Part shown: positions 7,527-62,049 of the stretch, one piece after another
Layout: each line of letters opens with the position of its first letter
Position numbering within the stretch: the first letter of the stretch is position 1
Origin: Takakia lepidozioides
Lineage: Eukaryota; Plantae; Bryophyta
Direction: 5' to 3'
Assembly: GCA_030704615.1 (NCBI GenBank)
Contig: CM060733.1
Location: forward strand, 33,976,001 to 34,040,000
Length of the DNA stretch: 64,000 nucleotides
Made by a program: the position numbers and the translations under genes
The notes under the pieces: generated by a model
Seen by the model: the letters and a program-made list of their open reading frames with translations, nothing else
What the model was told of the DNA's origin: nothing
The model's database searches: none

Positions 7527-8070
7527 CGTGCCCTCCGCAGATCTGTGCACCTCCTCTCACCTCTCCACAAGGCCAAATCACATTCCGGTGCTCAACCCTC
7601 TTCTTCGATCTTTTCAATCCCCGAGACAGCTCAAAACAACTTTACTCTCCTTTCTCACACACACGTACTACTCAATTACTCCACAAATTCCAGCTTCTTC
7701 TTCAACCTTCGCGATCGAAAATCCCTGATCCAAATTTCCTGTTCAGACTCTTTTAGATTTGAACAAATAGTTAAAATCTTTGTCTAACCAAGCAGCACAG
7801 CATCTACAGTAAAATGTTGCAGGCTTGTGGGTCCATCTCAAATGGTCACAACTGTCCGTGCTTGTGCTCAGCCTGCCTCGTATCTCGCCTCAAGTACCCG
7901 CAATACACGACACAGTGCACAACGCAACACTTGGGATCTCACTAAAAGTACTCACACACACTTTGCAAGTGCCAACACTCCACACTACCTACTCTACATC
8001 GTATCGTGTATCTACCAGTGTTGGACTGGTATCATGGTTTTTTTATACCACTAGGGCAAGGGTATTGGGG

Positions 8071-13615: not shown

Positions 13616-13780
13616 AACGCCTGGAGAAGGGAGTGTAACTTATGGTGTCTCAAGGGCTACTGCCTTCGAGCTGATAAGTGGACACTGGACACCTTCATGA
13701 CATACCAGACCGTGGTTTGAACCCACAACCACATCCAACGTGGTATGTGCCCATTACCACTGGGCTGCATGCTGGTTGTC
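13616..13780 (-). mobile_element. tRNA-derived SINE, family 1
   Basis: A-box-like cagcccagtgg and B-box ggttcaaacc on the minus strand. Homologous to 52483-52651. Confidence 0.75.
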
Positions 13781-25400: not shown

Positions 25401-26625
25401 TTTTTGGATTTTGGGTTTTTTTTTTTTTTCTAGAAGTATAAAAAACCTATAATCTTCAATGGCTAGGTGGCATATTGAAAGTTTTTTGTAAACTCTCATT
25501 TTTAGTTTTTCATAATTTCTCTAAATAATAAACTAAAATATTTAATGAATTATATCCTTAATATTTGGGGTAGGACTCTTTACTAAATATGTTTGGTATA
25601 CCATTATCTATCACTAAAAAAATATTTTGGATAATATTATCTTCTTTTTTTCTTTTTTTTTGTCATGGATTTTCATGGAGCAGGATCTAGCCGTTTTTGG
25701 TCCACTCAACCCTGCAACTGCCCGATAGTAACTCTCCAATCATGAATCCGATAAGAAATGACTCCGCTATGGACTTTTGAACATCGTCATTGTGGACTGT
25801 TACCGCAATGAATGGAATTACAATGGACTCAAGTTCTCATATGTGCCATTAGTGAATTTTAGACATAAGGTGGCTATTTTGGTCCACATAGGTATGGATT
25901 TGAAGTGACAAAATCATTTGTCATTTGATTCATATGGACTAATATATGTAAAACAAATAGGTGTTTTTTGAAAAGTCCATAGCTCATCTTGTTTTTAGGG
26001 TTTTGGGTGTCATTTTTTTCTAGAAGTATAAAAACCTATAATCTTCAATGGCTAGGTGTCATATTGAATTTGTTTTGTAAACTCTAATTTTTAGTTTTTC
26101 ATAATTTCTCTAAATAATAGACTAAAATATTTAATGAATTATATCTTTAATATTTGGGGTAGGACTCTTTACTAAATATGTTCAGTATACCATCTAAAAA
26201 TATATTTTGGGATAGTATCCTCAACTTTTGTTTTTGGTCATGGACTTCATGTATGGGCAAAGCCCTGCCAAATTTCATGGAGCAGGATCTGCCGTTCTTG
26301 GTCCACTCAACCCTACAACTGCCCTCCTCTTTTTTTCTTATCAGATCTTTTGCATGTGCACATTGGTGGTGAACTGCTAGTTGTTGCAAGAAGTGGTCCT
26401 AAAGCGCCATTCAAAATGTCATTTGAGGCTCTACTTTCCGAGGTCTCCCCACTGACCGCTTAGGTTTGTTTAGGTGGAAGAGACTTCTTTTCTACAGCTT
26501 CTTCTCAAGTTTCAAAGTGATTTTCTGAAACTCTCCATTGATATCATCATCACTCATATTTTTCAAAAACCTCGTCAAAATTAATTAATTCGGCAGCTGG
26601 GTGCCAAACCGACCTGCGCGTACAG
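22420..26625 (-). mobile_element. pogo/Tc1-mariner-superfamily (DDE_1) transposon, intron-containing and decayed
   Basis: Imperfect TIRs ccttatgcgcgggtcgatttcgcac / gtgccaaaccgacctgcgcgtacag with TA on both sides (22418-19 and 26626-27). Transposase motifs VNTDQ, LLPLQIIF, IIWLIDCWSVHKS, VLFIPANCTSKLQPADV. Confidence 0.85.
24983..26315. mobile_element. hAT-type MITE (CAGGGTTGA...TCAACCCTG) with an internal ~600-bp tandem duplication
   Basis: Left end cagggttgactggacc at 24983. The right end ggtccactcaaccct(g/a) occurs twice (about 25713 and 26315). Units of about 25125-25723 and 25724-26324 are near-identical. No TSD seen. Confidence 0.7.
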
Positions 26626-29739: not shown

Positions 29740-30842
29740 TAGGGAATTCCAAAAAGGCCTTGATGTGAAATGCATCGCAATTCACTTGATCACCCCCCTA
29801 AAAGTGCGCAATTCAATTGAATTGCAAGGGCAATTCAATTGAACTAACCCTAATTTGCAATTCAATTGAATTGTCGGCACACGATTCAATTGAATTGCTG
29901 ACTACAATTCAATCGAATTGTAAACTATATTTTTTAACTTATTTTTGTATATAGTATATAATATATAATATATATGTATATAAGCTAAAAATACATGTTG
30001 CCCGTCTATTCTTGCTGGCCCTCTTTCTTGTGCCCTTGAGGAAATTGTGGAGTTGTGAAACCACCCTCAGCCTCAGCGAGAAAGGGAGAGCCAGAGACGG
30101 AGACAGATCAGCAGCTTCCTGTGATTCACTGGCAAAAGAAACATGGCTGGCTCCGAAAAAAACAGACAAAATCAAACCTGACAATTGATGAAAGGCTTCC
30201 CCTGCATCACCATGTAGTCCCTTAACACTAGTATCTGGCCCATGACAAAAAAAACAAAAAATATGTTCATCTTGAGAATTATCAAAAATTTCAATACCCT
30301 TACAAAGGTATCATGTTGAAGTTGGGATGTGTGTTCTATATAAGTTTAATATATCAAACTCTTACACGTTGATACTCTTACATTGGTATCATGTTTGGTA
30401 TATGTACATAGCCATATATTGGCACCAACATCCACAAAGAGAGACAATCCCGCTTTTACAAGCGCTTCGTGACTTCCCCTCTCTCGCTCTCCCTTAGGCT
30501 TATCTTGGGCTCAAGCCTTACCACGGGCAAAGGAATGACAGACGGACAGCAAAAATAGACGGGCAACATGTATTTTTAGCTTATACCTGTGTATGTATAT
30601 ATGTATAATTTAAATATATTTATATATATATTATATACAAAAATAAGTTAAAAATTATATATTACAATTCAATTGAATTGTAGTCAGCAATTCAATTGAA
30701 TTGTCAGCACAAACGATTCAATTGAATTACGAATTAGGGTTAGTTTGAATTGCCCTTGCAATTCAATTCAATTGCGCACTTTTAAGGGGTGATCAAGTGA
30801 ATTGCGATGCATTTCACATCAAGGCCTTCATGGAATTCCCTA
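29740..30842. mobile_element. Non-autonomous long-TIR element of the same family as 56596-61716
   Basis: TIRs of about 280-300 bp start TAGGGAATTCCAAAAAGGCCTTGATGTGAAATGCA and end ...TGGAATTCCCTA. Internal 30112-30425 is homologous to about 59415-59745. The flanks (agcgtc / accttt) give no clear TSD. Confidence 0.9.
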
Positions 30843-32270: not shown

Positions 32271-35200
32271 ATGGAGGGAAAGATATCGATAGGATGGGCC
32301 TTAGCGATGGCACTGACATTGTGGAGGCCGATGATGATGGTGGCGGGGGAAGATCCCTATCAGTTCGTTGATTGGACAGTCACCTACATCAGTGCTACTC
32401 CTTTAGGAGCAACTCAGCAAGTACATACTCATGTCCTTATGGCTTCCCTCCCGCCCTCTTCTCGCTTCCTAGCTACAGACGAGCCGTTGGTCACCTCTTA
32501 CAAAATCTAGAATCCGCAGGTTGTCGCAAAAATCTTGGATTATGCATGATAACATTGTTTAGAAATATGTTTGCTCAAAGGAATAACGATCCGACTTGTG
32601 CTAATGTCCTCTAACCTAGTACGTCAATGTCTGCACATGGACCTTATTCATATATAGACCTACGGTTTGATGCTGAAGGGATAGAGGGTTGCAGGTCTGT
32701 AATTAACCAGTGCAATCTTGTGGGACAGGTGATTGCCATCAACGGTCAATTCCCAGGGCCGCAACTCCAGACCACCACCAATTACAACATAGTCATCAAT
32801 GTGTACAACCAGCTGGATGAACCCTTCCTTCTGACGTGGTGCGCCCTCCTAGTCTAGAGAATAGTTCTAAATGCATTCATGAGATTGAAACGATGGTTAA
32901 ATTATCTTCTAGAAGATTGCTCAGATTGTACGGCCTGCCTTGCTTCATGTCTGAAGGCCACCCGGCGGCCCTATGTCAGAGCACTGCATGCATTTCGAGT
33001 CTCTTTACTTAACATGTACAAGTGTAACTTTTGAAGAAAAACTGTGTTGATATCCTGCTTGCAAGAGGAACTCAGCAAGAGATGATTTGGCTTTGTGTTC
33101 AAATCTCTTCTCGCTGAGGGATATAGTTACAAATACAAGCCAGTAGAGCAACGTAGGTCTACAGTGTTTCAAAATCTCAAACTTTTCAGTTCCTGCAACC
33201 AGCAGACCAGGCACCTGAAGGTTCTAATGGAAATTATATGATATCTGTAATGTTATTCACCCGTTTGTACAGGGATGGGATTCAGCAACGCAAGAATGTC
33301 TGGCAGGATGGGGTGACAGGAACCAACTGCCCAATCTTGCCGGGCCAGAACTGGACATACCACTTAAAGGCCAAAGACCAGATTGGTAGTTACTTCTACT
33401 TTCCTACCACTTTCCTGCAGAAGGCAGCGGGTGGGTTCGGAAGCATTCGCGTCGACCCCCGCATTATTATTGCCTCTCCCTTTCTTCCTCCTGCTGACGA
33501 CTTCTATGTACTCATTGGCGATTGGTATAAAACTGATCACAAGGTAAGTTCCACATATCTGTTGTTTGCAATCTGGTGGATGTGGCTTAGTGTATAGTAT
33601 AAGGTGATTGCAGATGTGGAGGTGGGGTGCAGAAATGTCGAATACAGACGTTCATATGTAGATGTATATCTTGGATTGGTTTTGTCAGGGCTATTTAGAA
33701 GCCCGAGCTAACATTTGAGGCTTGCACCAGACCCGAGCATAATCTGGCTAGTCGGGTGGGGCCATTTAAAAATTTAGCTACACATGCATTCAAGAGCTCG
33801 TAGACTTTTGTCTCTCACATTCTGGCAGAAGGGAATCCAGAAATCAGCAACAATATTGTACTGGAGGGAAATCATGAAGCTTTCAGACACTTCATACACG
33901 TTTTCTGATGCAACAGACATTGAGGTCCACTCTTGATGAAGGTTTTCGTCTAGGGAATCCGGATGGAGTTCTTATCAACGGCCTTGGATCCTTCGGCACT
34001 ACCTTCATTGTTGACCAAGGTGGGTTAGGGCATTGGAGTTATGATTTGGAGCCTGAATACATCTAGACTCAATTTAAAATATCATTAAAGATATCATGGT
34101 ACTACTTAAGTATGTAAGTTTATACTTAAATACAGATCTAAGTCAGGACCATGTGGTGTTTAGATTACATTCCCTGTAGTACAGTACTATCTCACAACGG
34201 CAGTGTTTTTTTCTTCATATTTCTAAAATCGCTGGCGGGGCCACCTGTGAATTCTACCCAGTGCCCAAGTGGCGAGAATATTAGTTCGAAAAGTTGCTAT
34301 ATTCCAGGTGTCACGTTTTAACTGGTCCACGTCGGCAAGATTAGGCCCCTGAAATTTATCCGCTGCTGGTTTTTGGCAAAAAAGTCAGATTTTACCCCCC
34401 ATAATTCCTTTGTACAAGTAGCTGACGTAGTTTCCAGGTCGAAATTTGGCGATTTTTCGCCAGAAAGAAAAACACTGCCCTAAGGTTATACATGTGCTTT
34501 CCCAGGACTCTATACATGGTTCTAATGTGTCACGAATCAGGAATGATGTCTAGCATTTCATTCCAAGTATGAAAAGTCCCTGAACTTACTAGTGATTTAA
34601 GTACAATTTAAACCAGTATTTGAAGAGGCTAACAATGACAACATTGCAGGCAAAACATATCGCTTTAGGATATCAAATGTGGGGTCTGCTCAGACTCTCA
34701 ACTTCAGGATACAAGGGCACCGCTTGCTGTTGGTGGAAACTGAGGGCTCGTATGTGGCCCAGACCTTTTATGACTCTTTAGACATCCATGTCGGTCAGTC
34801 CTATTCTGTCATGGTGACGGCCGACCAGAACGTGACAGACTTCTACGTGGTCGCAAGTACCCGCTTTGCTCTGCCGGTGCTCACTGGCATTGCTATCCTG
34901 CACTATTCAACTTCGTCTACATCTGTGTCTGGGGATCTTCCTCCAGCCCCCAATGACGTCAAATTTTCGTTTGAGCAAGCTCGAAGTATCAGGTAGGTTC
35001 GCATCATCTGAAAGATTACCTCCCAATGTCACATTGAACTGTAGAGATAGCTCTAGAACCTTGTTATTATCGTACGTGTACATAGATATTTTACTGAAGT
35101 AGATGATCAATACCTTGATCTGTTTCTGCTTTTGGAAAGAGCTGAGCAAGAGTCATGGTCTGGAGAATGAATGCTTGATCTAAGGCTTAATTTCTTTTCA

Positions 35201-36759
35201 ATGCATACCCTTAAAAATGCGTACATAGCACTTGAGAATTCATTCATATGTCGCCAATGAGGTCTACCTCTTTGATTACACCCAGCTATTGATCAGTTTA
35301 CTCTCAAGCTTTAATCATATGATGGAAATCGTCCACCATCCAACCTCCATTAGGTGGATCTGGGATGGCCACAGACTTGTACAACGTTGGAATGAACCCG
35401 GAGAATATCACTATGTTAAGCAATTTGTGCATGCATGTCATTGTATTCAAGGCGGAATTTGACAGCTGGCGCAGCAAGGCCAAACCCACAAGGCTCTTTC
35501 CACTATGGCATGATCAACGTCTCAAAAACCTTCATCTTTGCGAATTCTGCACCAATGCTTAATGGCAAACAGCGGTATGCGGTGAACGGCGTGACCTTCG
35601 CGGAACCTGATACCCCTCTCAAGTTGGCTGACTACTTTGGAATCAGCGGTGTCTTCAACACTGGTTCCATCCCCGACTCTCCCACTGGAAATCCTCCAAG
35701 TTTTGCGACATCGGTGCTTGCTGGTGAATTTAGGTCGTTCATCGAGGTAGTTTTTCAGAATGATGAGAACTCTCTGCAGTCCTGGCACATTGATGGCTAT
35801 GCCTTCTTTATCGTCGGGTATGTTATAACACCTCGTCCTTGATAAGCTCTAGCATTATTGTCCAATTTTGACCATCACAGATCTTGAGGTCTTGTGTACG
35901 AAGCCTGTAACTGTATATTATATTGAGTACGAAAATTTCTCTTCTTGATGTTGCTGAAACCTCCCGGTTAACAGTTTATGTTCTATATCTCAAACGAATG
36001 GTGTGATTTCTGTAGACTTGGGCCAGGGACTTGGAGCTCAGCAGCCAGGCCCTCCTACAACCTTGTTGACGCGGTTTCACGCACGACCGTACAGGTGGCT
36101 CTTCCACCTCTTACTACTTTATAAAACAGGTCTTAATTTAAGTAGAACTGTGAATTATTTTGGTAACTATTCTTCTTATGTTCTGCTTAACTTCAAGGAT
36201 TCGTTTGCCGACGTATATGTCGTATGCAACGCTGGCATCCTAACTGTTTTCGATTGCTGGTAAACTTGTGTAGTTCGTTTACTAAGATATTCATTGAGTT
36301 TCTCCAGAAATAGTATAATTTAACAGGTACATGCTGAACTTCAGCTGAGTGTGTTTCTATGAACAACAGTCTGGCGGTGGTAGCATCTCGGTGATGCCTG
36401 AGATCCTTGCAATAACACTCTATATTAGTGAACTAAATGTGATGGAACGGAAGGGATGAAATTGAAGAACTAATGTAAAGGAACTGATAGGCATATTTAA
36501 GATTGACCACGAACAGACTTCGAACAAATTATCAATGCCGATCGTCCACTTCATCGTGCAGGTGTATCCGAACTCCTGGACGACAGTGATGCTGGAGTTA
36601 GACAATCCAGGGCTTTGGAATATTCGGTCGGAGGACCTGCAGCGCCAGTGGCTCGGGCAGGAGTTCTACATGCGTGTGTTCGACCCTTTGATGTCCAATA
36701 AGCGGCAGGAGGACCCTCCACCGACCAACCTCCTCCTCTGTGGGAGGGCGTTAGGATGA
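32271..36759 (+). CDS. SKS: SKU5-similar (SKS) monocopper oxidase / L-ascorbate oxidase homolog, 8 exons, 539 aa, secreted, no GPI tail
   Basis: Exons 32271-32420, 32729-32838, 33273-33543, 33917-34019, 34650-34992, 35452-35817, 36016-36094, 36562-36759, GT-AG, 1620 nt in frame. Motifs EDPY, INGQFPGP, GIQQRKNVWQDGV, KDQIGSYFYFP, ARPNPQGSFHYG, QSWHIDGY, LDNPGLWNIRS, LLCGRA. Confidence 0.95.
34201..34477. mobile_element. hAT-type MITE in SKS intron 4
   Basis: CAGTGTTTTT...AAAAACACTG termini with degenerate 8-bp flanks cacaacgg / ccctaagg. Confidence 0.65.
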
Positions 36760-40069: not shown

Positions 40070-40635
40070 TCAAATGATTTTTTGGGCGACAATTGTGAAA
40101 TTATCAACATGGGTTTGCGGTATGAGTATAGTGTCTGGCGGCGTGAATATGAAGGACCTCTTTGTGGGTTGTGTTTACATGCCCACATAGGGAACCCTTA
40201 GCGCTGACGTAGACAAAGCTTTCGAAGACGTCAAGCTGGACTGTGCTAAGTTCCTTGCCAAAGGTTAGGTGGTCTTATTTGGGTGACTTCAATGTCCGGG
40301 TGGGCAAAGGTCTTAGGATGATACGTGTAGAGGTTTTGGTGGTGACTTGGGCTTGGTTACCTGCACCATATTCTAAAGAATCTCTTGTAGACTATTAATA
40401 AACCGTCTGGAAGAACTTTTGACCCTGAATAATATGTCAAAAAGAGACCAAGTTCAGTGGACTCGTGAGAAAGCCCAAACTGGGAACGTTCCATTGTGGA
40501 TTATATCATAATGGACAAAAATTCTGTTTCCCCGTTGATCAATAGAACTGATATTGGTACATCTAACCACTGGACTAAGATCAAAAGGTGTTTTCCCAGC
40601 ACCAAGAGATCTATGAAACGTTCGATTGGGAGCTT
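40070..40635 (+). mobile_element. Decayed LINE endonuclease fragment
   Basis: Nucleotide homology to 58360-58930 (VYMP, GDFN, WTREK, SIVDYII), with stops and indels. Confidence 0.8.
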
Positions 40636-41439: not shown

Positions 41440-44400
41440 CTAGGAAAAGGCAGCAGCCTTGCAAATAGGGCACTGATTTTTCTGGACAAGCCACTGCTTG
41501 ATGCACGATACATGATAACCGTGCCCACAATCGATCTTCCCCAACTCGTCACCCTCCTCATATTCCTCCTGAGACAGTCCCAGTGAATAATGGTCAGGGC
41601 ACAATACTTGATGGCGCATGCAATGAGACAACTTGCCTTCGAATAAAAGTAACAACAGTCACATAATGCTCACAATTGCTTGCACTCAATGTGTATGCCC
41701 AAAGATGGTGCAAACATCAGATCCTCTAGATTACAATTCTTTGAAAATTAAAGTACAAGTGACATGCCAATATGTACATGGAAGCCAATAAGAAAATCCC
41801 TGCTCAAACTTCCATCAAGGCGCACAGCTTACTTTAAAACTTGGGACAGTGATTCAGTACAGATGATGTAGAGGTGCAGAGCACTTTCAGAGTGCTGAAA
41901 TCACCAATCCACAGCTGTCTTTCTCGTGCCCACTTATACGTTTGGGGGCGAAGGCCACACAGCGAAGTCGAGGCTACATGACTACACATTATATAACACC
42001 TGCACAGGCAGAGCATGAGATACCATACCTGACAGATGCTGCATTTCCTGTCACACTCTTGTGGAGAGGGAGTAACCACCACATCCAATGAGGAGTATTG
42101 ACTCCTCTTCAACTTCTGGTTCACCACATCAGCACTCACCCCTGTACTCACAGTGCCTATTCTCTCCTCCAGAGCAAGCAACTCCTGCACCCACACATGG
42201 CAAATACCATCACCTTTATCCAATCAGCCTAATAGGCTCAGTGCTACCCACCACCAACAAGAGTGCAGTTTTCCTTCTAGTGGCACCACACTCCAATGCG
42301 CAAGCATTAGGAAAAATGATGGCCAGCCGATGGTGCGCCACACTTCATCTGTACATCAACCCCTCATATATAACATCAATTTTACTCCTGCATTCCACCG
42401 CACCCCTATACTCGACCCATATGCGATCCTATATTTCTAGAATGATAAAACAGCAGGTGCCCCCGTCATGGGGCAGACCTAGCTATCATTTGACTTACAT
42501 CTGAGTCTTGTGATCACTGAAGCAATATAGATAGCACAACTAAATGTTATCCATTTCACAGTAGGCAAGAACTTATTGGGACTCTGGAACAACTTGTGGA
42601 GATTTAGCGATCCTAAGTGGACTTCTAGGTAGCTTCACAGCATACACAAGTCCCAGGAATAAGGTGTCTTAGGCACAGCAACCTGTTCCAAACTAACTGT
42701 ACTCCCCACAGTGCAAGGGCACAAAAAGCATCACACGGTAAACCAGCCTTGAATAGAAAATAACTAAACAGCAGGTACAGAAGTGTCAGACCTCATAAGA
42801 CATGTTGTCGACATCAAGACGCAAGTCACTGTGTTGGTCATGGAGGCCCATTCCTCCAAACAGCAAGGTCGCCTCCAGCATCAAAAGTTGCTATGCAGGT
42901 TGTAGCCACACATGTCGTCCATCACCAACAAGGAGCACAGAACTTCAGGCAATAAATAAATGTAACAACATTCGACAAAAACAACTTGACTGAAAAGCTT
43001 GGACCATACAGTTGCATCTAAGACTGGGTGGCACCTGATGGGATGCTGCCAGAAATCAAGCAATACTCTGTCTTGTGTGGCACTCCAAGCAAAACCTATA
43101 CATGAGCTTATAAATGAGCAATTCACTACGAAATGACAGGACTACACGCAAACGCTTACAAGATAATGATGTACCTCATATGTTAGATCTTCATCTCTCT
43201 CTACACACTCCAGTGCCAACAGAATCTGTTTCATAAATCACCTCATCAGAAGGCAATTTTGATCATTCAAAATCACTCCTTGAGACCCATGGGTAGAATA
43301 AGAAAAAAGAAACAATAGGACTAAATGAGATCTGAAAAGAAAGTTTCCACTTGTGTACACCAAACTGTGAGCAGTCACGCATCAGAAACTCTGAAGTGAG
43401 TGAATTCTCAAAATGGGCAGGCAAGTTCCAGTTGCATCATCTTACAATGCAAAAAACTATGTTTCCAACCTGGACACAACTTCATCTAAGATCCAGCATC
43501 ACACAGCCTTCCAGACTGATGTGCCCGATACCAGCAACAAAAATCAGTGATACCACTTTCCCCCAAAAGCAACCAAGCCTTTCTGTAATTAACAGAGAAA
43601 ATAACATCAAATGACCAACCTCAGCAAGACCTTCTGCCACAAGTCGCGACTGATGTGCTCCATCACCTGCTGACATCTGCAAACCCCGAAAAGGCAGTCC
43701 AAGAAGACTTTCTGCAACAGATGAAAGCCCTCTTTCACTGCGTACTCCAGCTTGTGACCTTGGCAGTATTGACCCTTGGAACAGACTTGCAGGTGAGGGG
43801 AGTGTATCCATGGAGGTAGCAAGTGCCGAAGGGGCTGAAGATGGAGGTGATGGAGGCATACGAGAAGGTGCAGGTCCTGATGAGAAAGGGGAAGGCATAA
43901 ATGTGTTTATACTGTTGCCCTGCAATCTCCCACGCAGCACTGGGGGGTGAGGAGGTGGCCTTGCAGGAGACCGTATGGAGGTGGTCACTGAGGTTGCAGA
44001 TGCTTGCATTGAGGGAGAGACAGGGTCAGCTGGCAGGGGAGGAGTGAGAAAACTGATTGTGGAGTCCAAGTTACTGTGGTTGATGCCAGAGCTTCGAATT
44101 CTGCTCTCAATTGCAACTGCTGCTCCAAGCTCACTCGCACTTGATGCACTGGTTGCCAAACTTCGTGTGCTACTTCCCATGTACCTGTGTGATAGCCGTT
44201 CTCCTAGAGTACTCAAGCCAACACTAGTGTCACCAAGTCCTAAGGATGCAGAGCTCCCACTTGTGTCAACTGAAGGAGTGCCACTGGGTGGCACAATAGA
44301 AGCACCCAGCATATGATCAACAATAAGCAGGCTGCTACTGGAGTTGCTCTCATCTGCATCCATGGACGACTCTGCTAGTGATGCTCTCTGAGAACCCCAG

Positions 44401-45893
44401 CTGTCAGGCTGCAAAACTGGCGTGGGCTTGTGCTCTCTGGGAGCAAAAGTGGATTGGGAAGGCTGGGATGTTTCTGCCTGCAACGACACCGCTCCACCTG
44501 CTCTGCCCCTTACACTTCTTTGAGAATTTACACCTGAACTACTACTACCTAATACACTCTTACCAGACCGGCCTTCTCTGAGAGGTTCAGGCAATACATC
44601 AATTGGGTCTTGGAGATAGCCACCCTTCCGAGTACAGGGATCCTCTGAAGTGTTAGCCAGAACTGGGGGTTCAGCGCATCGGCCAATGGATGTTGCCTGT
44701 GCTGAAATTGAGGTAGAGGCCACAACTTCAGAAGTAGAGGTGCTGCCTGCAATACCAGTGCTGCGCCGACTAAGTCCTCTACCTCCCATTGTCCTCCCAC
44801 TGCAGCTCTCCCGAAAGCCACTTCTATGAGGGGATCCATTTCGACAACCAAAACTACCTGCCATCACAGGTGTGCAACTCTTTCTCTTACAAGCAGAGCC
44901 CCTGGAGCTACTACTCACATTACTTAACCTACCAGCACCAGTTTCCACAGAGATCCCTGAGGAAGTGCCTCTTGAAGAATGTTTGTCTGCACCATGATGG
45001 CAAACTTCACCCCTGCTGCCTACTTCACCATCAAATACGCCCTGATTCTCAGCAGAACCTGACAGAAATGCCCCTGTCGGACCACAGAGGTCGCTGCCAC
45101 CCCCATGAAGGTGTGCTCGATCTCCCGAATCTTGACGCTCCATGAACAGTGAATTGGAGGTCACACTTCCATCAAGCTCCCCTGACTTTCCCTCATCAAT
45201 ACCGTTCCTCCCTCCCTGATCAGGGATGCCTGCTGGAGCTTGCCTGTTACCTATTGGTGGTAACCCAGAGGCTGCACTCCGATTGCCCAAACTGTGTGCT
45301 ATGTGACCTGCTGCCCTGCCTGGGAAAAGCCCTGAGCTACTGCTCCCCTGAACTGGTGCCCCCCCAATGAGGAAGTCCAGGCTGTTGCTCACTGACCGCT
45401 GTGCTCTTCCTGAAAAGGAATCTGAAAGAGCGTGTGGGTGTCCATGGCCTTGAAGCATACCATCCTCCTCAGACAGACCCAGCTGTGTGTTGAGGCCCAT
45501 TCCAATGTTGGCTTCAGCATCCAAGCCCGCAGAGCCTGTTCCTGACTCATTCACGAAGCCCTGCAATACATTCCACTGCCCTTGCAGTGACCCATGATGG
45601 GGTCTTTGCACTCTCCGAGAACCAGGTGAGCATGCAGCAACCAGCTTTGGAGACAACTGAGATGGTTTGCGGACAGGGGTTCTGCTGCATTCTGGACCTT
45701 TACCTGTTTCATGGTTACAAACTCTTCCCCCCAAACGCAATTCCATGGCTTCTTCCATTTTCGTGGGCCTGCTACTACTGTTGCTGCCACTGCCTCCATT
45801 GCTGCTACTAGACTGGTAATGTATGTCTGCAGAAGACCACCGACTCCCACCCATGAAAGGAGCACCTCTTCTTGCATCTGTGCCGTCCTCCAT
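41440..45893 (-). CDS. RING-H2 E3 ubiquitin ligase (MBR/HIP1/RHG1a-type) with a long disordered N-terminus, 5 coding exons, about 902 aa
   Basis: Exons 45893-43620, 43225-43175, 42890-42792, 42184-42029, 41568-41440, GT-AG, 2709 nt. Motifs DQHSDLRLDVDNMSYEELLALEERIGTVSTG and CSICQEEY...CGHGYHVSCIKQWLVQKNQCPICK. The start codon and 5' UTR exons (probably up to about 49000) are uncertain. Confidence 0.92.
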
Positions 45894-48800
45894 GGAGACA
45901 AGCAGATGTGGTATAGTACTTTATCGCAAGTTGTACACAGGTCTACAGTGACGAGCAGCTGTCAAAGGTGAAACTAGAGATGCATACTCTGTTCAGTCAT
46001 GGCAACCTTCCATGAACACCTCTGCAAAGAAAGAGCTCTACAAATGCCTGATCTCGCCAGCTGGATCCCCCATCATCACCTGATAATGAATGGAAAAACA
46101 TACCATGATAAATCCAAAAAAAGGAATTTAGATAAAACCTTGTCCCCCTCTTCTGCTCCACCTGAACTGGGCAGGGATCTATGGCCAGCACTTCTCATGC
46201 ATTTAATGAGATCCACACACCAGCCTGGGATCAGGTTTATAACCTATTGACCTACAAACTGTAGCTGTTTGCAAATACATATGTCATGCGCATAATGGTG
46301 TAAGCACTAAGAGTTCGTATAATAATCTATAACTGCCGCATCAATCAATAGACAACAGCTAGACAAATCACAAAAACCTCTGGCAAAGCAGACTCTGCCC
46401 ACCACTAGTTCCCAGGTCTAGAAGGCTAGTTTCGGTTTACTATGAGTGCAAGATTTGGGCGCCACAGCCGGGGTGTGCGGCTCTCCACTCTGCACTGGAA
46501 GGCACTTGGAGGTAGGAAAGTTAGTAGTCACCCTGTGGCCTTGCGAACTGGCAACCGCCAGCTGCAAAGTCTGCTTGCACAACATCCATTACCAGATATG
46601 AGGACAGAAGGTAATGGAACCACTCATCCACAAGAGATGGAGAAGATGTTAAGGCTACCTCCAGGGACGGTCACAAGGTACAAGAGTCGTCATCTTTCTG
46701 AAACATACAAGAGGCATCTAAAGTCGTCAACTACAAACACTTTCTACATGCATATTCCAGTTTGCAGTGACAGGTTCGGACATCTATCATCAAGAGCTTT
46801 TCGAAAGCATCTCCTCTACAGAAGGACATGAGAAGTTGCAGACTCCCTTCCACTTCGTTTGTTAAATTATTGGTTGATCTATGAATAGAATCATAGGATC
46901 TAAGTTAGCAGCAAATTCTATAGCAGCCACAAGACACAGTTATTCACAAAAAGTCTCTTTCACATCAGAGAAGAGAACAGGGCCTGAAATGAGGGTCCTG
47001 CCATCTATAAGAAGTAGCCAGCAGAAGGTGCCAAACTACATCATTACATGGTTAATTGTCAGTAGATTCTTCATGGATAGATTACAAGAAGTGGTTAAAA
47101 AATACCACAAGGCTGCCAAGGTTGACACTCTCCAAGTTGCCATTCGCCTCCTTGCCCTCACCCTCCATGCTGCCCTTAGATTCCCTGCCCTCCTCCTGCA
47201 TCCGCACATGTGGCTTCAGGGGAAAAAACAGTTCCACCCCTATCACCTTGCTCACAAACAAATCTTTTCGTAGAAATCAAGATATGCTATCACAAATCAA
47301 TGAGCACAAGCTTCTGATTAACCTGCCGCAACGTCATATAGGAGTCCTTCTCCTTCCCCACCCTGTCAATCATAGAGATGTTTGTTCTCTCTCCTTTCAT
47401 TTTTATCTTTCTCGTCCTGTATTTCCTTCTCACAGTCTCGCTTTCAAAGGCTTCAGTGATGCTGCAATACTCTGCACTTTGTACAAACAGAGGGACGGTT
47501 CGCCACACAGTTGTGGCAAGCCAACTCCAATCACACGTTGTCTCATACTCACACAGACTTGAGATTCCATCACCATCTCTGCCAACTTGTCAAGGCCCCT
47601 TCCTACATACTCTTTGATAATCCTAGTTCTTCCATTTGGTCTTTACCAGGCCCTGACTCCCTCATCATTATAAGAAAGTAGCCTCCCCTCCTCTGTGACT
47701 CTTGTGCATTTGGCCATTCACTTTTGGTCATCCTCCTGCTGTCATTTACATTGGTAACTAAGTCAAGTTTTCCTCCAACATACTAACATTGCGTCCTTCC
47801 CCAACTCAAACCCAGGACGTGCAGGCAATTTCCATCAGAGAACCAGCAAAAGAGGTGAGGGGATTGTGACGACCAGCCGTCCTATTAGAGCCTCTTGCTG
47901 AATAAGCCCCGCACACCCCTGCCTTTACCTGAACATCCCATTCATTCACAAGCCTGCTCAAGCCTCCATACATCCGTTTGTTGGATGCAAGGAGATGCCT
48001 CAAATGAGAACAGGGACTGATCAATCGGCAATATCAGGAGCTTTCCACACACCGAAAGATGTTATCAACTGGGAAGATGCCCTTCAGCTCGATTCAGTTA
48101 CTTGGCAGGTGGGTCGTAAAATTATTCTATGCTTCGCTGAAAACAGCATACGCTACGAAGGAGAAGCCTCACAACACAAACAGTGGAATTAAAATCTCAC
48201 CAACCAGCAATTCAGGAGAGGCATGTAGAATTGGCGCAGGACAACAGAAGAACAGGTTACCATACAACTCTCAGTTTTCACTCGGAGGAGAAAAACACTC
48301 ATGGTCCGAAAACAGCAGTTGGTGAGATCGTAAAAGAGTAGATGCCAAATACGGCGACCAGGAGGACTCGTCACAAAGTAAAACATATATTCTGTGATGA
48401 GACAACTTATGTTCAGCGCATCACTCAATGTGGAGAACTCTACCACAACCATGGCGATCCAACCAAGTATGAAAGCAATGACCGCGTCATTTAATTATGC
48501 AGGCTCGTGCGGGTGAGGAATGCAAGGGCAAACAATCACAGTTTGAACGCAAGTCTCATAGCAAGTAATTTAGAGCCCAGCAGGATTGACAGATTCATGT
48601 GAATACACTCTTAACCCCAAAGAGAAGAGAAAACAACAAAGAACGGATGGCAGAAGGGCAAAGAGACGCACCGCACTTAAAATGGTGGGAAGCGGAGAAC
48701 GAAGCGATCCTCCATTCACACAAGCCAGGGACAATGTTAGACGCCCTTCTCAGAGAAGATTTGAACGCCGAAATGCAACAGCCTCACGCCAGTTGGTGAC

Positions 48801-49072: not shown

Positions 49073-50001
49073 CCCCCTACATTCTCTCGTTGTCACTTGG
49101 ACGGACGATGTTTGTGAGATGGACGAACGACATTCAACTGGTCCCCTCGACTGGTCCCTTATCCTTGACTCTTCCTACTTCATCTTCCTGCTTCCATTGT
49201 GCGGAAATTTGGTAACTCAAGGAAAAGCAAAAGCATCTTGAACACGGCATCAACTGTCTGCCTCTCAAATATGTGGATATATCTCCAGATGTTGAAGGCA
49301 GTCGATAAGCTCCAAATGAATCTGCCTGCATCGGACTACTGAAGAACAACGAGCAAGTTAAAAGCACCCAAGCTGTCCCGTTGGTTAGTCTGCGAGCTCA
49401 ACAGGATTGCCCACGCGTCCACTGCTTGCTGCTACACCAATGATTTTTTATTTGGTAACCTAAAAAATAGCCGCAATCAGCCCCAAACATGGCCTATGAG
49501 GGTACCCAGTTTCGGTTTAGGGCCTAGGGACCCTACCTCGCAAAAGACCCTTACCTAGCGGACCTTGGCCGGGTCATAGATCATGGGGCCACCTAAAACC
49601 ACCCCTCCTCAGTGCATGGGCATGCTGCCTGGCTCACACGTGAGACTTAAAGACTCAATTATTAAAAAATGAGAAGCTTTTTTTAGTCTCTCTTGATGTT
49701 GACGGTGATGTTCCGGGAGGGCTAACTTATGCGGAGGTATAGTGTATTAAAGGTGGTGCAGATCATTGGGGGGCTTATTAAGCTTACTGTTGCTATTAAT
49801 TAATATACTGATTAATATATTAATTATTATTTTTTGGGCCCTGCGTGTGTAGACCCCCCTAGGTAGTTAGTTAGTAAGTAGGAAGAGAGCCCCCCTCTCC
49901 TTTATATACCCTCTCAGGGCGGTGGGACCCTTCTAGAAGGGTGGGACAATCAGGCCTACTCCCACCTACTCCCACCACTTGACATACCCTAACTACCCAA
50001 A

Positions 50002-50091
50002 AAGTATGACGCCTCCCGAAGGGAGCGTAACCTATGGTGTCACTTGACCCCGAAGGGCTACTGCCTTCCAGTAGGAAGGTGAACACCTTCT
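50002..50091 (-). mobile_element. 5'-truncated SINE family 1 copy
   Basis: Matches the 3' half of 52483-52651. 13-bp TSD ctaactacccaaa (49989-50001 and 50092-50104). Confidence 0.85.
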
Positions 50092-50189: not shown

Positions 50190-51219
50190 TCAATATATGA
50201 ATCGAGATGTTTGTTTTGTTTTGTTTGTTTGGTAGATTTGAGATGTCCCAAACTGCGGGGCCCCACCCTAAGTGCTTGGTTCCGTTGGAAAGCCCTCGAC
50301 GAGGAGGGGTGCACGGGCTTGGTCTCACGATTTTTGGACCTGCGGTGTGGGAGATGTGGAATTTCAAGTACTTTGGGTCGCTGAAAATTCACGAAAAATT
50401 GCAAAGTGGGCATTCTTGGGACAATGGTTGGAGCCTCGACAGGAGAGATATCAAGGGAAAGGTCTCCATTTCAAATCTGATCGTAGGCTCTGTGGAAAAA
50501 ACATGCATTTGGACTTAGATGACATTGGACCCTTGGGCCAACGGCATAGGCTACCCTAGAGGTCGCACTTGGGCCTCGACATTGGAGACGCACTTGGATA
50601 CATAGGAGATTGCACTTGGGCTTATATCTCAATTCTTCACACATGGGCCAATGGCTAATGCTACCCTATATCTCCAAACAATGGGGTCTCCGTATACATA
50701 AGGGATTGCACTTGGACATAGATGACACTTGGGCGCGGGTGCTTGGTCCTAGAGGTTGCACTTGGGCCTCGACGAGACACACTTGGATAGATAGGGGATG
50801 CCAATTGGACTTAGATGACACTGGACACTTGGGCCAACGACACAGGCTACCCTAGTCAATATATGAAGCAAGACGTTTGTTTTATTTTGTTTTGTAGATT
50901 TGAGATGTCCCAAACCACAGGGTCCAGCCTTGGTGCTTGGTACCGTTGGAAAGCCCTCGATGAGGAGGGGTGCACCGACTTGGTTTCATGATTTTTGGAC
51001 CTACAGTGTGGGAGATGTTGAATTTCAAGTACTTTTGGCGCTGGAAATTCCCAAAAAATAGGAAAGTGGGCATTCCTTGGACAATGGTTGGAGCCTCGAC
51101 ACGTGAGATATCAAGGGGAAGGTCTCCGGTTCAAATCTGTTTGTAGGTTCTGCGGAAAATAGACCTAAGATGACTTAGATGACATTGGACACTTGGCCCA
51201 ACGGCACAGGCTACCCTAA
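50190..51219 (+). mobile_element. Head-to-tail pair of Helitron-like non-autonomous elements
   Basis: Both units start TCAATATATGAA (50190 after an A, and 50856). They end ggcc(c)aacg(g/a)cacaggctacc-CTAG|T (50855) and CTAA|T (51219), with an extra internal 3'-end copy at about 50559. No TSD. Confidence 0.65.
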
Positions 51220-52482: not shown

Positions 52483-52651
52483 GACAACCAAGTTGTAGCC
52501 GAGTGGTAATGGGCACATCCACCTCGGAAGTGGTTGTGGGTTCAATCCACCCTTGATGCCACAAAGGTGTCCACCTTCCGAAGGCACTAACCCTTCGGGG
52601 TGAAGAGACACCATAATTTATGCTTCCTTCGGGAGGCGTCAAATATTATTA
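52483..52651 (+). mobile_element. Full-length tRNA-derived SINE, family 1
   Basis: tagccgagtgg (A box) and ggttcaatcc (B box). 10-bp TSD ttactagaca (52472-81 and 52652-61). Confidence 0.85.
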
Positions 52652-52970
52652 TTACTAGACAGTCATTTGTCTAGTCTATTGACCATATGAATTAAATCTT
52701 ATTTACATATGAAATACAATATAGAAAGATATTTTTTTCTCATTAAGTCTAAGTTCAAAATAACAGGTGAAATGTTTTGCTGAACTTGCAGACCCCCCAA
52801 TATGTACTCCTATTAAAAGTAGTTCAAAAAACAAAAATACAAACAAACAAACAAACAGGCTTGGACATATAACAAGCTGTCGTAACAAATGTGGCTATAG
52901 CATGTGGCCCCACATGGCTATTGCAATGTGAAAGTGCCAATTGCATGTGGCCCACATGGAGTGCATGCAA

Positions 52971-53049
52971 AAAAGTATGACGCCGGAGCGTAACTTATGA
53001 TGTCACTTGACCCCCAAGGGCTACTGCCTTCCAGCAGGAAGGTGGACTC
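52971..53049 (-). mobile_element. 5'-truncated SINE family 1 copy
   Basis: 3' half of the family consensus. 9-bp TSD tgcatgcaa (52962-70 and 53050-58). Confidence 0.8.
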
Positions 53050-56200: not shown

Positions 56201-56949
56201 CTTCATCATGATTCATCATCATCTTCCCTCAAAATGACCCACTTCTATTTTGACTTTGCCACTTTTGTTTTTGAGAGGAGGTAGGGCAAAACTCCATCAT
56301 CGTCCGTCTTTCCGCATCCATGGGCAGACATTTGTTTCTCCTTCCCCATTGTCATCTCCACTCCCCTACTTCTTTCAAACTCAACACCATCATGTTCCTC
56401 GAAAGACAATATAGTAGGAAATTGAGTTATCACAACAACAAGGACAATTAGCGTATGCAATGGGGGAATTCAACAAATCCTAATTCTTCCCATGGATACT
56501 TTTCCATTCTCACGGATTCAAAGCTACAATAGAAGGAGTGGTGAAAACTAAGATTGATAGACTATTATAGCCGCGTTAGGGGTGGCGGGCACGAGTAGGG
56601 AATTCCAAAAAGGCCTTGATGTGAAATGCAGCGCAATTCACTTGATCAGATGCCAATTCAATTGAATTGCGATGCCAATTCAATTTAACTAACCCTAATT
56701 TGCAATTCAATTGAATTGTAATCTATAATTTTTAACGCAGTTTTGTATTTAATATATATAATATATTATCATGTATATGTATATGTATATGTATCGTATA
56801 CACATATACATACGAGAGTATAAGCTGAATATACATGCTGGCCCGTCTATTCCTGCTGCCCGTCCATCCTTTGCTTGTGGTAAGGCCTAAGTCACGACAT
56901 GAGTCGCGTAGCCTAAATGAGAGATATATACTACACATATATACTAGTA

Positions 56950-57196
56950 GAGGTATCGTCATTAGGTTGTAGCCCTGTTTGATATATCTACAGAGGTATA
57001 GTATTTCATTTTACAAGAAAAGTTGGCCAAATTAATCTATATTTATGCGGAGGTATCGTCATGAGACAGTAGCCCTGTTTAGTATACCACCAGAGGTATA
57101 GCGCCTGACTTACAAAGAAACCTGGTCAAATCAGCCTATATGCAGGTTGAGGTATCGTTATGAGGTAGTTGCCCTGTTTAGTATACCTACAGAGGG
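56950..57196. repeat. ~100-bp tandem repeat, 2.5 copies, just inside the left TIR
   Basis: gaggtatcgt(c/t)at...gccctgttt...agagg recurs at about 56950, 57050 and 57149. Confidence 0.85.
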
Positions 57197-57601
57197 ATTG
57201 GCAACGTACGCATTCTTATCTCTGTTTTTATCCCAGTCCTCGCTTGTTAGATTTTACAACTGTTCATCGTGTAGCACTTGGCTACATGATTGTCTATTGT
57301 TTCTGGTTTACTCAATAAGAAGAGTGGGATAGAAATGTCAAGTGAGTTTTCATGGTACGTGTCATGGTTGGGTGGACAGGAAGAGGCCAAGGAAGAGGCA
57401 GCAGCAGAGCTGACACATTTGGTAAGGCAACCGTGTCCATCCTGAGTATGAAGGATGCTGCACCCTCGGAAATACAAGATGCTTCAAGTAAGTTCAAAGA
57501 GCTTTCTTCTCTTTCTGGTGTGCTGGATATGTATGCGGAGGACAACTAATATCACCTTAGGTGCCAAGGGAGAAACAAACAACCAGACCCTATTTCATTT
57601 C

Positions 57602-59010
<1,409 letters not shown>

Positions 59011-59027
59011 TAGATCACCAGTCACAC

Positions 59028-59177
59028 CTTCATAGGAGTGGGCATGTGGCTTGCAAGTGTTGGGCTGCCAATAACAAACCCACTACAACGTTGCACTACA
59101 ACCATAATCTCATCACTATTGCAGAACTCAGCATTCATGCTCTCGATTCCCACTCCAGCCTTTCAAATTCCTCAACT
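59028..59177 (-). pseudogene. Captured exon fragment of a flavodiiron protein (FLV / diflavin flavoprotein), flavodoxin domain
   Basis: Minus-strand translation S*GI*KAGVGIESMNAEFCNSDEIMVVVQRCSGFVIGSPTLASHMPTPMK followed by a GT donor. It matches the Flv motif GITKAGVxVES.N.E...GFxIGSPTLGGHxPT and has two stops. Confidence 0.8.
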
Positions 59178-59920
59178 TCCATTCAGCATCCCATGAACCC
59201 CACATGCAGCCCGAGTGTTATTACAAGCACGTTATGTGCTTTGGTAAATACTGTTGTGGGAATGAGGCAAAGCCCTCAAACCTTGGCCAAATGTTTATGC
59301 AAACCTCCTTAAACTGCTTGTGAGCTAAATGGGTTTGATGTGCATGCCAGGGCTAGCTCCATCTCATTTTTTGGGGGACCCTTTGGGAGACAGATGGCTT
59401 ACTCAGAAGTGCTTCAGCTTCCTTTGATTCACTGGCAAAAGAAATATGGCTAGCTCTGAAAGAAACAGACAATTTCAAACCTCACAATTGATGAATGGCT
59501 TCCCCTGCATCATCATGTACTCCCCTGGCACTAGTATCTGGCCCCCATGACACAACCCCAGAGAAAACAAAAGACATGTTCATTTCGAGAATTATCTCCA
59601 ATAATCTTGTTTCGATACTCTTACAAAGGTATCATGTTGCAATTGGGCTGTGTGTTCGATAGAGAGTTTAATATATCAACTCTTAGACGTTGATACTCTT
59701 ACAGTGGTATCATGTTTGGTATATGTACATAGCCATATATTGGCACTATAAGGGCTTGGCAGTATGAAATTGGTTAGTGTCTCAAGGTGCAGATGAAACA
59801 TGCTAACATATTTAGATTGTAAGCAACACCCACCAGTCAAACTCATCCTCAGAAGAGATTGATACACAAAAATTTCTCAGGGTCGTTGGTGCGCAGGCTT
59901 TTGTCAAGGGCTTGATATCA

Positions 59921-60786
59921 TCATAAAGGTGTTTCAGAACGTGTGGCTTCAATGTGTTGTTTTATAAGAGAGTGCTCTACTGCAAAATCAGATCGAATTC
60001 GTAAAGGTGCTCCAAACTTGGAAACTGCATCGTGATATCCTTTTAAAATGGTTTTTTCTTTCTTGTTTCTTGCAACGTTCGCCCATAAAACAAAATGAGA
60101 GGCCCCATCAATGCCAGCATGTACTCGAAGACCAAACATAATCAATTTGTCATAAGCTGCACCACGAATTGTATACATGTTTTAGTTTGCCTACAATTTT
60201 GTGCGATATGTAATACAAGAAAACGTCTTGCATGTGCATCTTCAAAGAACATTAAGATGCATGAGATAAAATACTTACAGTCAATGTGCCATAGAGCCAT
60301 AGGCATTGTCACATTATACTGAGTCATTTGAATTGCCTGTGCCCTTCTCCTACGCTCATAATGGTAGGGTGAGATGATTTTCAAAGCTTCCCCCACCTTC
60401 CTTCGAGGAATCCGCCAATTTGACCTCTTTAAGGCAGATTGCACTGTTCTCATTCCCCAATTTGACCCATTCTCTTCAATAGGAAGTAACTCTTGAATCT
60501 TTTCACACAAGCGTTGGACACTCAATTCATGATGAACTTTGAAAGGAGACCCTTGGACTTCTGATAGCAATCTTCTCAATGGTCGTACATCATCAAAAGA
60601 AAGGGCAGTGGCGATTGATTTCATTGTGGCACCCTCATTCAACATTGCTTCCACATAAAGTACTAAATCATCCACTACTTTGTCACCATCCAAATGGTTG
60701 TTTTCCATGCTTACATGATCTGTCTTATCTCTGCTTAATAGCCCCAGTGCCAATGCCTTCGACCTTGCCCTTGTTGTAATTGTTTG
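59921..60786 (-). pseudogene. IS3EU-like / integrase-core DDE transposase, spliced, C-terminally deleted
   Basis: Splicing intron 60278-60157 (GT..AG, 122 nt) joins ORFs 60142..60753 and 59921..60178 in frame. The product has an HTH (EGATMKSIATALS), NWGMRTVQSALK...YNVTMPMALWHIDSYDKLIMFGLRVHAGIDGASHFVLW...FGAPLRIRSDFAVEH. It stops before the expected third catalytic Glu motif. Confidence 0.85.
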
Positions 60787-62049
60787 CTGTTAATTCTGTA
60801 GTCACTGCATCCACTCACACACTCCCCATAGGACTTACGTCACTAAAGTTCACATAGGCTATCAAGTAGATGAACCAAATGTACTTTGAAACAACAACTA
60901 CTATATCCTAAAATGTATTAGCAAACCACAGTACACAGTGTGGGCAGGTTGAAGACAAACCATGTGATCAAGCTCTTTCTTTCAGTGTGTGTGTTGAGGA
61001 GCGTTTGGTAACCCACTCTACTACCCCTAAAGTTCTCTCCTCAAAACTCATGAGTCACCAGCACGTACACAAGAACTACAACTTTAGCTAAAATGATATC
61101 TTTATCAATGATTGGGGGAACTCATGCCAATATGGGAATGTGCTTACTCATGGGCAGATCTTGTCATTTGGTGATCCAAGAAGGCTTCCATTATACATAG
61201 CGCCACCACCGCTCCACCACCGCTCAACCCTAAACTTGTTGTTGCATTCTTCTCTCGTTACTTCTCGTCCTCCAACTGATTTGATCATTTCACTTTTAGG
61301 GCACCTCTGCCCCAAAAACCCTTCATCACTTCATTTCTCTCTCCCTTTCCCTCGCTCTCGCTCTCTCTCTAGTATATATCTCTCCTTTAGGCTACGCGAC
61401 TCATGTCGTGACTTAGGCCTTACCACAAGCAAAGGATGGACGGGCAGCAGGAATAGACGGGCCAGCATGTATATTCAGCTTATACTCTCGTATGTATATG
61501 TGTATACGATACATATACATATACGTATATATGATAATATATATATATATATATATATTATATACAAAACTGCGTTAAAAATTATAGATTACAATTCAAT
61601 TGAATCGCCAGTTGGCAATTCAATTGAATTGCAAATTAGGGTTAGTTCAATTGAATTGGCATCTGATCAAGTGAATTGCGCTGCATTTCACATCAAGGCC
61701 TTTTTGGAATTCCCTACACGGGCAGTGTGGCTGCCGTGAGTACCCGCCTCCACGTCCTTCCCACACCGTCCCCTCGTCATTCTCGCCGGGCTCAAGTTTG
61801 AGAGATGACTTGTCCTGACGAATTGGAATTTTTCCACATGGCAGATATCGAATCGTGGCTAGCCAGCCGCGACCTGCTAGCGGGTGCAGGTGCCGGGCTC
61901 TGCGGTTGCGGCTAGCTGCAACCTCTAATGTATGTGTAAAAACGTCACGACTACCTCTAAATGTGTGTGTAAACAGTCTATGACTCACCTTCGAGATTCA
62001 ATCTAATCAATGGTCATGATCAATTTAAAAATTATATTTTATTATTTCC

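What the first reader, a model, noticed from the sequence alone, without database searches (positions are those of the whole stretch)
59028..59177. Flavodiiron (FLV) photoprotection gene exon captured inside the element: Pack-type behaviour
Seen: a 50-codon minus-strand segment, missed by the ORF track, with the Flv flavodoxin motif (KAGVGIESMNAEF...GFVIGSPTLASHMPTP) and its GT donor retained, lying between the TIRs. Established: FLVs occur in cyanobacteria, algae, bryophytes, ferns and gymnosperms but not angiosperms. Gene capture is known for Pack-MULE, CACTA, hAT and Helitron elements. Inference: the retained donor implies DNA-level capture by an IS3EU-like element, which would be a new Pack class and a possible source of siRNAs against FLV.
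Basis: partly seen in the sequence, partly recalled or inferred. Interest (0 to 1): 0.72.

Follow-up and report, generated by a model that had tools for sequence, protein, structure and literature searches.

The report
Moss transposon carrying a photoprotection-gene exon
A jumping gene in what is likely a moss carries a broken copy of one exon of the plant's own flavodiiron photoprotection gene, likely picked up as DNA and then copied tens of times; this family of elements (GingerRoot) is already known to carry gene pieces, so it is a tidy new example, not a new kind.

Summary
The FLV piece is real. It matches Flv/MpFLV1 proteins and the host's own spliced FLV transcripts at about 94%. It equals one 50-codon exon, now with two stops, and its match to the host's single-copy gene runs 5 nt into the next intron, so the GT donor is truly retained. 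It sits in a 5.1-kb element with ~340-bp TIRs, TA..TA ends, a 5-of-6 six-base TSD and an rva_4 transposase cut off before its third catalytic residue. The DDE motifs match, by eye, GingerRoot, which is the IS3EU lineage (PMC10045372). Contig depths suggest tens of near-identical FLV-bearing copies; a sibling lacks the neighbouring LINE piece, so the LINE likely did not bring it. Two more host-transcript pieces lie in the element. The 'new Pack class' claim fails: 22 of 77 Selaginella GingerRoots carry exon-plus-intron fragments (PMC6839031). The siRNA idea is untested and is known for maize Pack elements. The scan noted a similar gene-carrying IS3EU-like element in another genome (e1-7393099). 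Verdict: new member of a known kind; interest 0.2.

The parts
56590..56595 (.). Left target-site duplication CACGAG (5 of 6 with the right one)
   Evidence: chance of 5/6 or better about 0.005
56596..56933 (+). Left TIR, 338 bp, begins TAGGG
56938..57219 (.). Three ~100-bp subterminal tandem repeats
   Evidence: (D4, D9)
57605..57708 (.). (CT)n microsatellite; may belong to the LINE piece (not resolved)
57750..59008 (+). Piece of a very high-copy LINE (5' part and endonuclease, no RT), 3'-truncated at 59008; left end lies at or left of 57750 and was not mapped
   Evidence: Pfam Exo_endo_phos_2 E 1.4e-6; LINE contigs leave the window after 59008; depth about 200,000-590,000 in run X4
59023..59178 (-). 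Captured FLV (MpFLV1-type) exon 59028-59177 plus 5 nt of the following intron; two stops; about 94% to host
59415..59746 (.). Internal block shared (85%) with the small sibling element at 29740-30842
59837..59927 (-). Second host-gene piece (unidentified gene; matches an RNA contig in two runs at 59837-59910, and by eye on to about 59927), lying right where the transposase breaks off
   Evidence: tables 3 and 7; no Pfam match
59928..60156 (-). Transposase exon 2 (DDE core, second D in RSDF); breaks off at 59928 before the catalytic E region
   Evidence: Pfam rva_4 PF24764 E 1e-11, profile positions 18-87 of 194
60157..60278 (-). 122-nt GT..AG intron of the transposase, spliced out in an RNA contig of a family member
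   Evidence: table 8 record 23
60279..60804 (-). Transposase exon 1 (N-terminal part to the first catalytic D in WHID)
60960..61031 (.). Third host-gene piece (unidentified; matches one RNA contig in run X9, by eye on to about 61055)
   Evidence: tables 4 and 7; no meaningful Pfam match
61370..61716 (-). Right TIR, 347 bp, ends CCCTA
61717..61722 (.). Right target-site duplication CACGGG
   Evidence: right junction confirmed by a 586-nt contig at single-copy depth with 0 differences (record 8)

Best explanation
This is a transposase-broken GingerRoot (IS3EU-lineage) DNA transposon of what is likely a moss, carrying a dead 156-bp copy of one exon of the host's single-copy flavodiiron gene that was likely copied in once from genomic DNA and then multiplied to an estimated tens of copies. 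Shown: the piece matches host FLV mRNA and gene at about 94%, keeps 5 nt of intron, has two stops, and lies inside TIRs with TA ends and a six-base TSD. Inferred: it entered as a short templated patch during repair of a broken element (the two other host pieces are of like size, and one sits exactly where the transposase breaks off); the defective element was then moved in trans by autonomous relatives, one of which is transcribed and spliced; a LINE later inserted in this copy's lineage and a deletion joined it to 59009. The piece makes no FLV protein and is most likely neutral cargo.
For: Host genomic contig at depth 75 aligns to 59023, host mRNAs stop at 59032. Exon limits from P0003 versus P0005 give exactly 50 codons. 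Element-version contigs over 59037-59297 differ from the window by 0-1 letters and stand at 23-50 times single-copy depth in X4, against 10 differences in 156 nt to the host: one capture, later amplification. A 372-nt contig of an independent study (X5) bridges the exon to the block shared with the small TIR sibling (record 12). X5 record 14 carries 59009-59156 with 0 differences and no LINE. Of 7 placed differences 6 change the amino acid (neutral expectation 79%) and two stops are present. Transposase: rva_4 E 1e-11; motifs DSYDKL, HAGIDGASH and RSDFAVEH match the Selaginella GingerRoot rows by eye. Host groups with mosses, 98/92. PMC6839031 reports the same anatomy, including loss of DDE region in cargo-bearing copies (6 of 22 keep it).
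Against: The tool does not print the aligned intron letters and 1 of the 8 DNA differences is unplaced. Contig depth is a rough copy measure and run X4 may be the sample the window came from. TIRs (338/347 bp) are longer than the 100-150 bp reported for GingerRoot. The lineage call rests on one 123-aa exon. No genome was held, so no sibling was seen whole.
Confidence: 0.85

Rival explanations
1. The exon was captured through RNA: a chimeric or partly spliced transcript that joined element sequence to the FLV exon's acceptor served as the repair or reverse-transcription template, which would explain why the piece is almost exactly one exon.
For: 5' end within about 3 nt of the exon start with no recognisable acceptor (GGA where a relative has Q, likely CAG); all three cargo pieces come from expressed genes, though they were found through RNA contigs, which biases this.
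Against: 5 nt of the downstream intron are kept, which a fully spliced mRNA cannot give; no neighbouring FLV exon is joined on either side; the second cargo piece ends inside continuous mRNA sequence near a stop codon.
Confidence: 0.09
2. The neighbouring LINE carried the FLV piece in (transduction or template switch) and the GingerRoot is only its landing site.
For: The LINE piece ends 14 nt from the FLV piece (59008 versus 59023), and this LINE family is abundant and present in RNA contigs.
Against: A sibling contig has the identical FLV piece with other sequence in place of the LINE, and in X5 it alone covers 59017-59120 (depth 6.26); LINE and FLV are on opposite strands; the LINE piece is the 5' part with no RT or tail.
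Confidence: 0.04
3. The arrangement is an assembly chimera or a decayed FLV paralog into which repeats fell.
For: No listed contig spans the whole element.
Against: Overlapping element-version contigs tile 59037-59297 in X4 and a 372-nt X5 contig bridges exon and element body; only one FLV exon is present in 64 kb; TSD and TIRs are intact.
Confidence: 0.02

Closest known systems
GingerRoot elements with gene fragments, Selaginella lepidophylla (Cerbin et al. 2019, PMC6839031; abstract, passages, sections 16 and 21, Supplementary File 1 seen)
   Same: TA..TA ends, 6-bp GC-rich TSD, integrase-like DDE with DSYDKL and RSDF motifs, size in their 3.9-12.9 kb range, cargo of 84-1654 bp at 79-98% identity with exon and intron, several donors per element, DDE region often lost.
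   Different: Host is likely a moss (their moss evidence was DDE reads only); TIRs about 340 bp versus 100-150; the cargo-bearing form appears young and multi-copy; a spliced transposase transcript of the family is seen, whereas they found no DDE reads in S. lepidophylla. Their list of ten donor genes (Table S3) was not in the file held, so I could not check it for FLV.
IS3EU superfamily of Repbase (Kojima and Bao 2023, PMC10045372; Kojima 2025, PMC12730594; passages seen)
   Same: TA..TA termini, usually 6-bp TSD, same lineage as GingerRoot (bootstrap 99 in their tree); fungal IS3EU families are reported to carry a captured TET/JBP gene.
   Different: Ends here read TAGGG..CCCTA rather than the TAYGG..CCRTA of rust-fungus families; no second element-encoded protein was identified here; cargo is dead fragments, not a working gene.
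Pack-MULE, Pack-CACTA and Helitron gene capture with siRNA cross-talk (review PMC13317346, passages; bioRxiv 10.1101/777037, start of abstract in a search listing)
   Same: Host gene fragments inside a transposon; possible siRNAs shared with the donor gene.
   Different: Different superfamily; no small-RNA or methylation evidence here.

Membership tests
GingerRoot / IS3EU | Termini 5'-TA...TA-3' with TIRs | tested here: met
   TAGGG...CCCTA; TIRs 335 identities in 357 aligned columns of the end regions
GingerRoot / IS3EU | 6-bp TSD | tested here: met
   CACGAG / CACGGG, 5 of 6, chance about 0.005; imperfect by one base
GingerRoot / IS3EU | Integrase-related DDE transposase of the GingerRoot type | tested here: met
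   Pfam rva_4 E 1e-11; 349 relatives at E<=0.001; motifs compared by eye with SL_GR and AD_GR rows. First two D present; E region missing in this copy
GingerRoot / IS3EU | Placement inside the GingerRoot clade in a DDE tree | not testable with these tools
   Reference sequences exist only in a paper supplement and could not be used as tool input; compared by eye only
GingerRoot / IS3EU | TIR length 100-150 bp (as reported for S. lepidophylla; descriptive, IS3EU has no fixed length in the passages seen) | tested here: not met
   338 and 347 bp
Pack-type element | Host gene fragment between the TIRs with an identifiable donor in the same genome | tested here: met
   Host FLV mRNA contigs in 2 of 2 RNA runs and a genomic contig in X4
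Pack-type element | DNA-level acquisition (intron kept) | tested here: met
   5 nt of intron align with the host gene and not the mRNA; short, and the 5' side is open
Pack-type element | Cargo moved with the element (several copies) | tested here: inconclusive
   Depth 23-50 times single copy and bridging contigs, but no second whole copy with its own TSD was seen
LINE transduction | Cargo downstream of the LINE 3' end, same strand, travelling with the LINE | tested here: not met
   Opposite strand, no RT or tail, sibling without LINE
Flavodiiron protein (FLV) | Full three-domain protein | tested here: not met
   Only residues 449-496 of 744 of MpFLV1, with stops

The most novel reading that the evidence does not exclude
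A young Pack-GingerRoot family has spread tens of copies of an FLV exon through a moss genome, and silencing of these copies yields perfectly matching 21-24-nt siRNAs (a 27-nt identical run lies at 59074-59100) that methylate or dampen the single FLV gene, so that a transposon sets the plant's tolerance of fluctuating light.
Probability: 0.07. Interest if true: 0.55.

Novelty: new member of a known kind. Interest (0 to 1): 0.2.

Why it matters
As it stands it extends gene-fragment carriage by GingerRoot from a lycophyte to a likely moss with a clean donor-versus-copy pair, and it warns annotators that FLV searches in this genome will return many dead one-exon hits. I found no paper on an FLV fragment in a transposon or on a Pack-GingerRoot in a moss, but the phenomenon itself is published. 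It would matter more only if small RNAs from these copies were shown to act on the FLV gene, or if cargo ends in the family proved to follow exon borders, which would point to an RNA step in capture by a DNA transposon.

Tried and rejected
No whole genome was held, so siblings and the host FLV locus were seen only as short contigs of 4 of the 10 listed runs. No listed holder is on record as RNA; X7 and X9 are guessed RNA, though their contigs are spliced. No RNA contig carried the element version of the FLV piece; a part without cover is no evidence on expression. The sibling's sequence left of 59009 was not found in the window (0 matches at 3 mismatches; 8 short matches against 19.6 expected), and no LINE target-site duplication above 6 bp was found. 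The junction region does not fold better than shuffles in this copy (z -1.5). The two other cargo pieces and the 59224-59352 frame could not be named: Pfam gave nothing above cut-off for 5 of 5 frames and the protein atlas could not read new sequences. No downstream transposase exon was found: all 27 of 176 matches outside the exon-2 core lie within 59864-60687. Terms flavodiiron, diflavin, flavoprotein, flavodoxin gave 0 hits in the one supplementary file held for PMC6839031; its tables S1-S7 were not visible. FLV distribution across plants is recalled; I saw only listing and abstract starts.

Full report
Observation. window:59028-59177 on the minus strand gives 50 codons with the FLV motifs quoted. 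Two are TGA stops (59172-59174 and 59163-59165), so the open part is 45 codons. That part hits the solved 'Putative diflavin flavoprotein A 3' chains 6h0c and 6h0d at E 7.5e-9 and five proteins in the large collection, three named as liverwort proteins including MpFLV1, at 60-64% identity (5 of 5 candidates). tblastn of these five against the window finds only this one piece below E 0.01. P0003 looks like a genomic read-through of the same gene as P0005: they are identical from SRG to TPVQ, 50 codons, and differ on both sides.

Donor gene. Laying contigs of four public runs on 58965-59330 showed the host's own FLV. RNA-type contigs of 1624 nt (X7) and 1717 nt (X9) match 59032-59178 with 8 differences; their loose ends read as FLV coding sequence on both sides (my reading: ending AQAI upstream, starting QNALG downstream). 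A DNA contig in X4 (868 nt, depth 75, like the depth 55 of the unique flank) carries the same five listed differences and aligns on to 59023, five bases into the intron, and then diverges. The donor site is therefore inherited from the gene, not a chance GT. With the two changes at 59030-59031 the copy differs at 10 of 156 positions. Of the 7 differences I could place, 6 change the amino acid against 79% expected without selection; 3 are unplaced. With only one silent change, this host gene is the donor or very close to it, and the copy is not kept for protein.

The element. Inverted repeats span 56596-56933 and 61370-61716. Ends are TAGGG and CCCTA; flanks CACGAG and CACGGG match at 5 of 6 (chance about 0.005). 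A minus-strand transposase runs from about 60804 to 59928 with a 122-nt GT-AG intron that an RNA contig of a family member splices out (record 23). Exon 2 hits Pfam rva_4 at E 1e-11 and 349 representatives at E<=0.001; relatives align to exon 1 as well. Across the splice the motif reads WHID-SYDKL, followed by HAGIDGASH and RSDFAVEH, which by eye match the Selaginella GingerRoot rows of Supplementary File 1 of PMC6839031. The copy breaks off at 59928, before the N-x-R-I-E region that 43 of 151 stored relatives hold; family contigs diverge or end at the same point. IS3EU and GingerRoot are one lineage with TA..TA ends and 6-bp TSDs (PMC10045372, passages). A chitinase-domain exon elsewhere in the window groups with Ceratodon and two unnamed rows at 98/92 in a 37-row tree, so the host is likely a moss.

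Amplification and the LINE. In X4, element-version contigs over 59037-59297 differ from the window by 0-1 letters and stand at 23-50 times single-copy depth; transposase contigs stand at 19-31 times. Depth is a rough guide and X4 may be the source sample. In X5, a different study, a 372-nt contig bridges the exon (from 59127) to 59498, inside a block shared with a small TIR sibling at 29740-30842. A LINE piece (5' part and endonuclease, plus strand) ends at 59008. LINE contigs leave the window there, and X5 record 14 holds 59009-59156 unchanged but continues with other sequence that is not in the window. A further X5 contig leaves at 59127. So the FLV piece belongs to the family, siblings differ inside, and the LINE join is likely later.

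More cargo. RNA contigs match 59837-59910 (X7, X9) and 60960-61031 (X9) with long loose ends on both sides. These are pieces of two further host genes that I could not name. By eye the first extends to about 59927, the point where the transposase breaks off.

Mechanism. Shown: identity, donor, 5 nt of intron, stops, element anatomy, spliced family transcript. Inferred: short patches copied from host DNA during repair of a broken element, then transposition in trans by autonomous relatives. The repair model is from general knowledge of Pack elements and is not tested here.

Comparison with what is known. Cerbin et al. 2019 (PMC6839031; abstract, passages, sections 16 and 21 seen) report 22 of 77 intact GingerRoots with fragments of ten genes, 84-1654 bp, 79-98% identity, with introns and exons, some with two donors, and only 6 of the 22 keeping a DDE motif; GingerRoot reads were found in 18 moss species. 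Fungal IS3EU families carry captured TET/JBP genes (PMC12730594, passages). siRNA cross-talk between captured fragments and donors is reported for maize (PMC13317346 passages; 10.1101/777037 listing). Searches for GingerRoot (13 papers), IS3EU (62 papers, 30 listed) and flavodiiron with transposon terms (168 papers, 15 listed) showed no report of an FLV capture or a moss Pack-GingerRoot; tables S1-S7 of the GingerRoot paper were not visible. The scan's notes hold a similar gene-carrying IS3EU-like element in another genome (e1-7393099), and other notes on this genome also call the host likely a moss; these are unchecked and not counted as support.

Verdict. Observation confirmed; interpretation partly supported; new member of a known kind. 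Interest 0.2. The bold reading, that the copies feed siRNAs onto the FLV gene, is possible (a 27-nt identical run exists) but has no evidence here: probability 0.07, interest 0.55 if true.

Noticed in passing
window 29740-30842: 1.1-kb non-autonomous sibling with the same TAGGG..CCCTA ends, 70-87% to the big element's TIRs and 85% over a 330-bp internal block; no TSD (GCGTC / ACCTTT).
   Followed up: partly
window 59837-59927 and 60960-61055: Two further host-transcript pieces inside the element; donors unidentified.
   Followed up: partly
window 59009-59027 and X5 record 14: In the sibling without the LINE, the FLV 3' junction is one arm of a 9-bp inverted repeat with a 9-nt spacer (read by eye); the LINE join removes the other arm here.
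   Followed up: partly
window 59179-59414: Multi-copy sequence between the FLV piece and the shared block with a protein-like frame at 59224-59352; may be more cargo; no Pfam match.
   Followed up: partly
window 40075-40631 and 885-1612: Other LINE remnants: a 71% copy of the endonuclease region, and what looks like a LINE 3' end beside a simple repeat (the 3'-end label is recalled).
   Followed up: no
window 13617-13780, 49999-50089, 52483-52641, 52970-53047: Another repeat family with inverted arms (50007-50089 / 52564-52641) and internal tandem repeats at 50190-51218.
   Followed up: no
window 23024-24326 and 25122-26324: DDE_1 transposase remnant (Pfam E 5e-6) and a 600-bp tandem duplication at 84%.
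   Followed up: no
window 3810-7556, 33157-35842, 41834-45920: Host genes: GH18 chitinase-domain protein, multicopper oxidase (Pfam) and a long low-complexity exon upstream of a RING-like exon (label recalled).
   Followed up: partly
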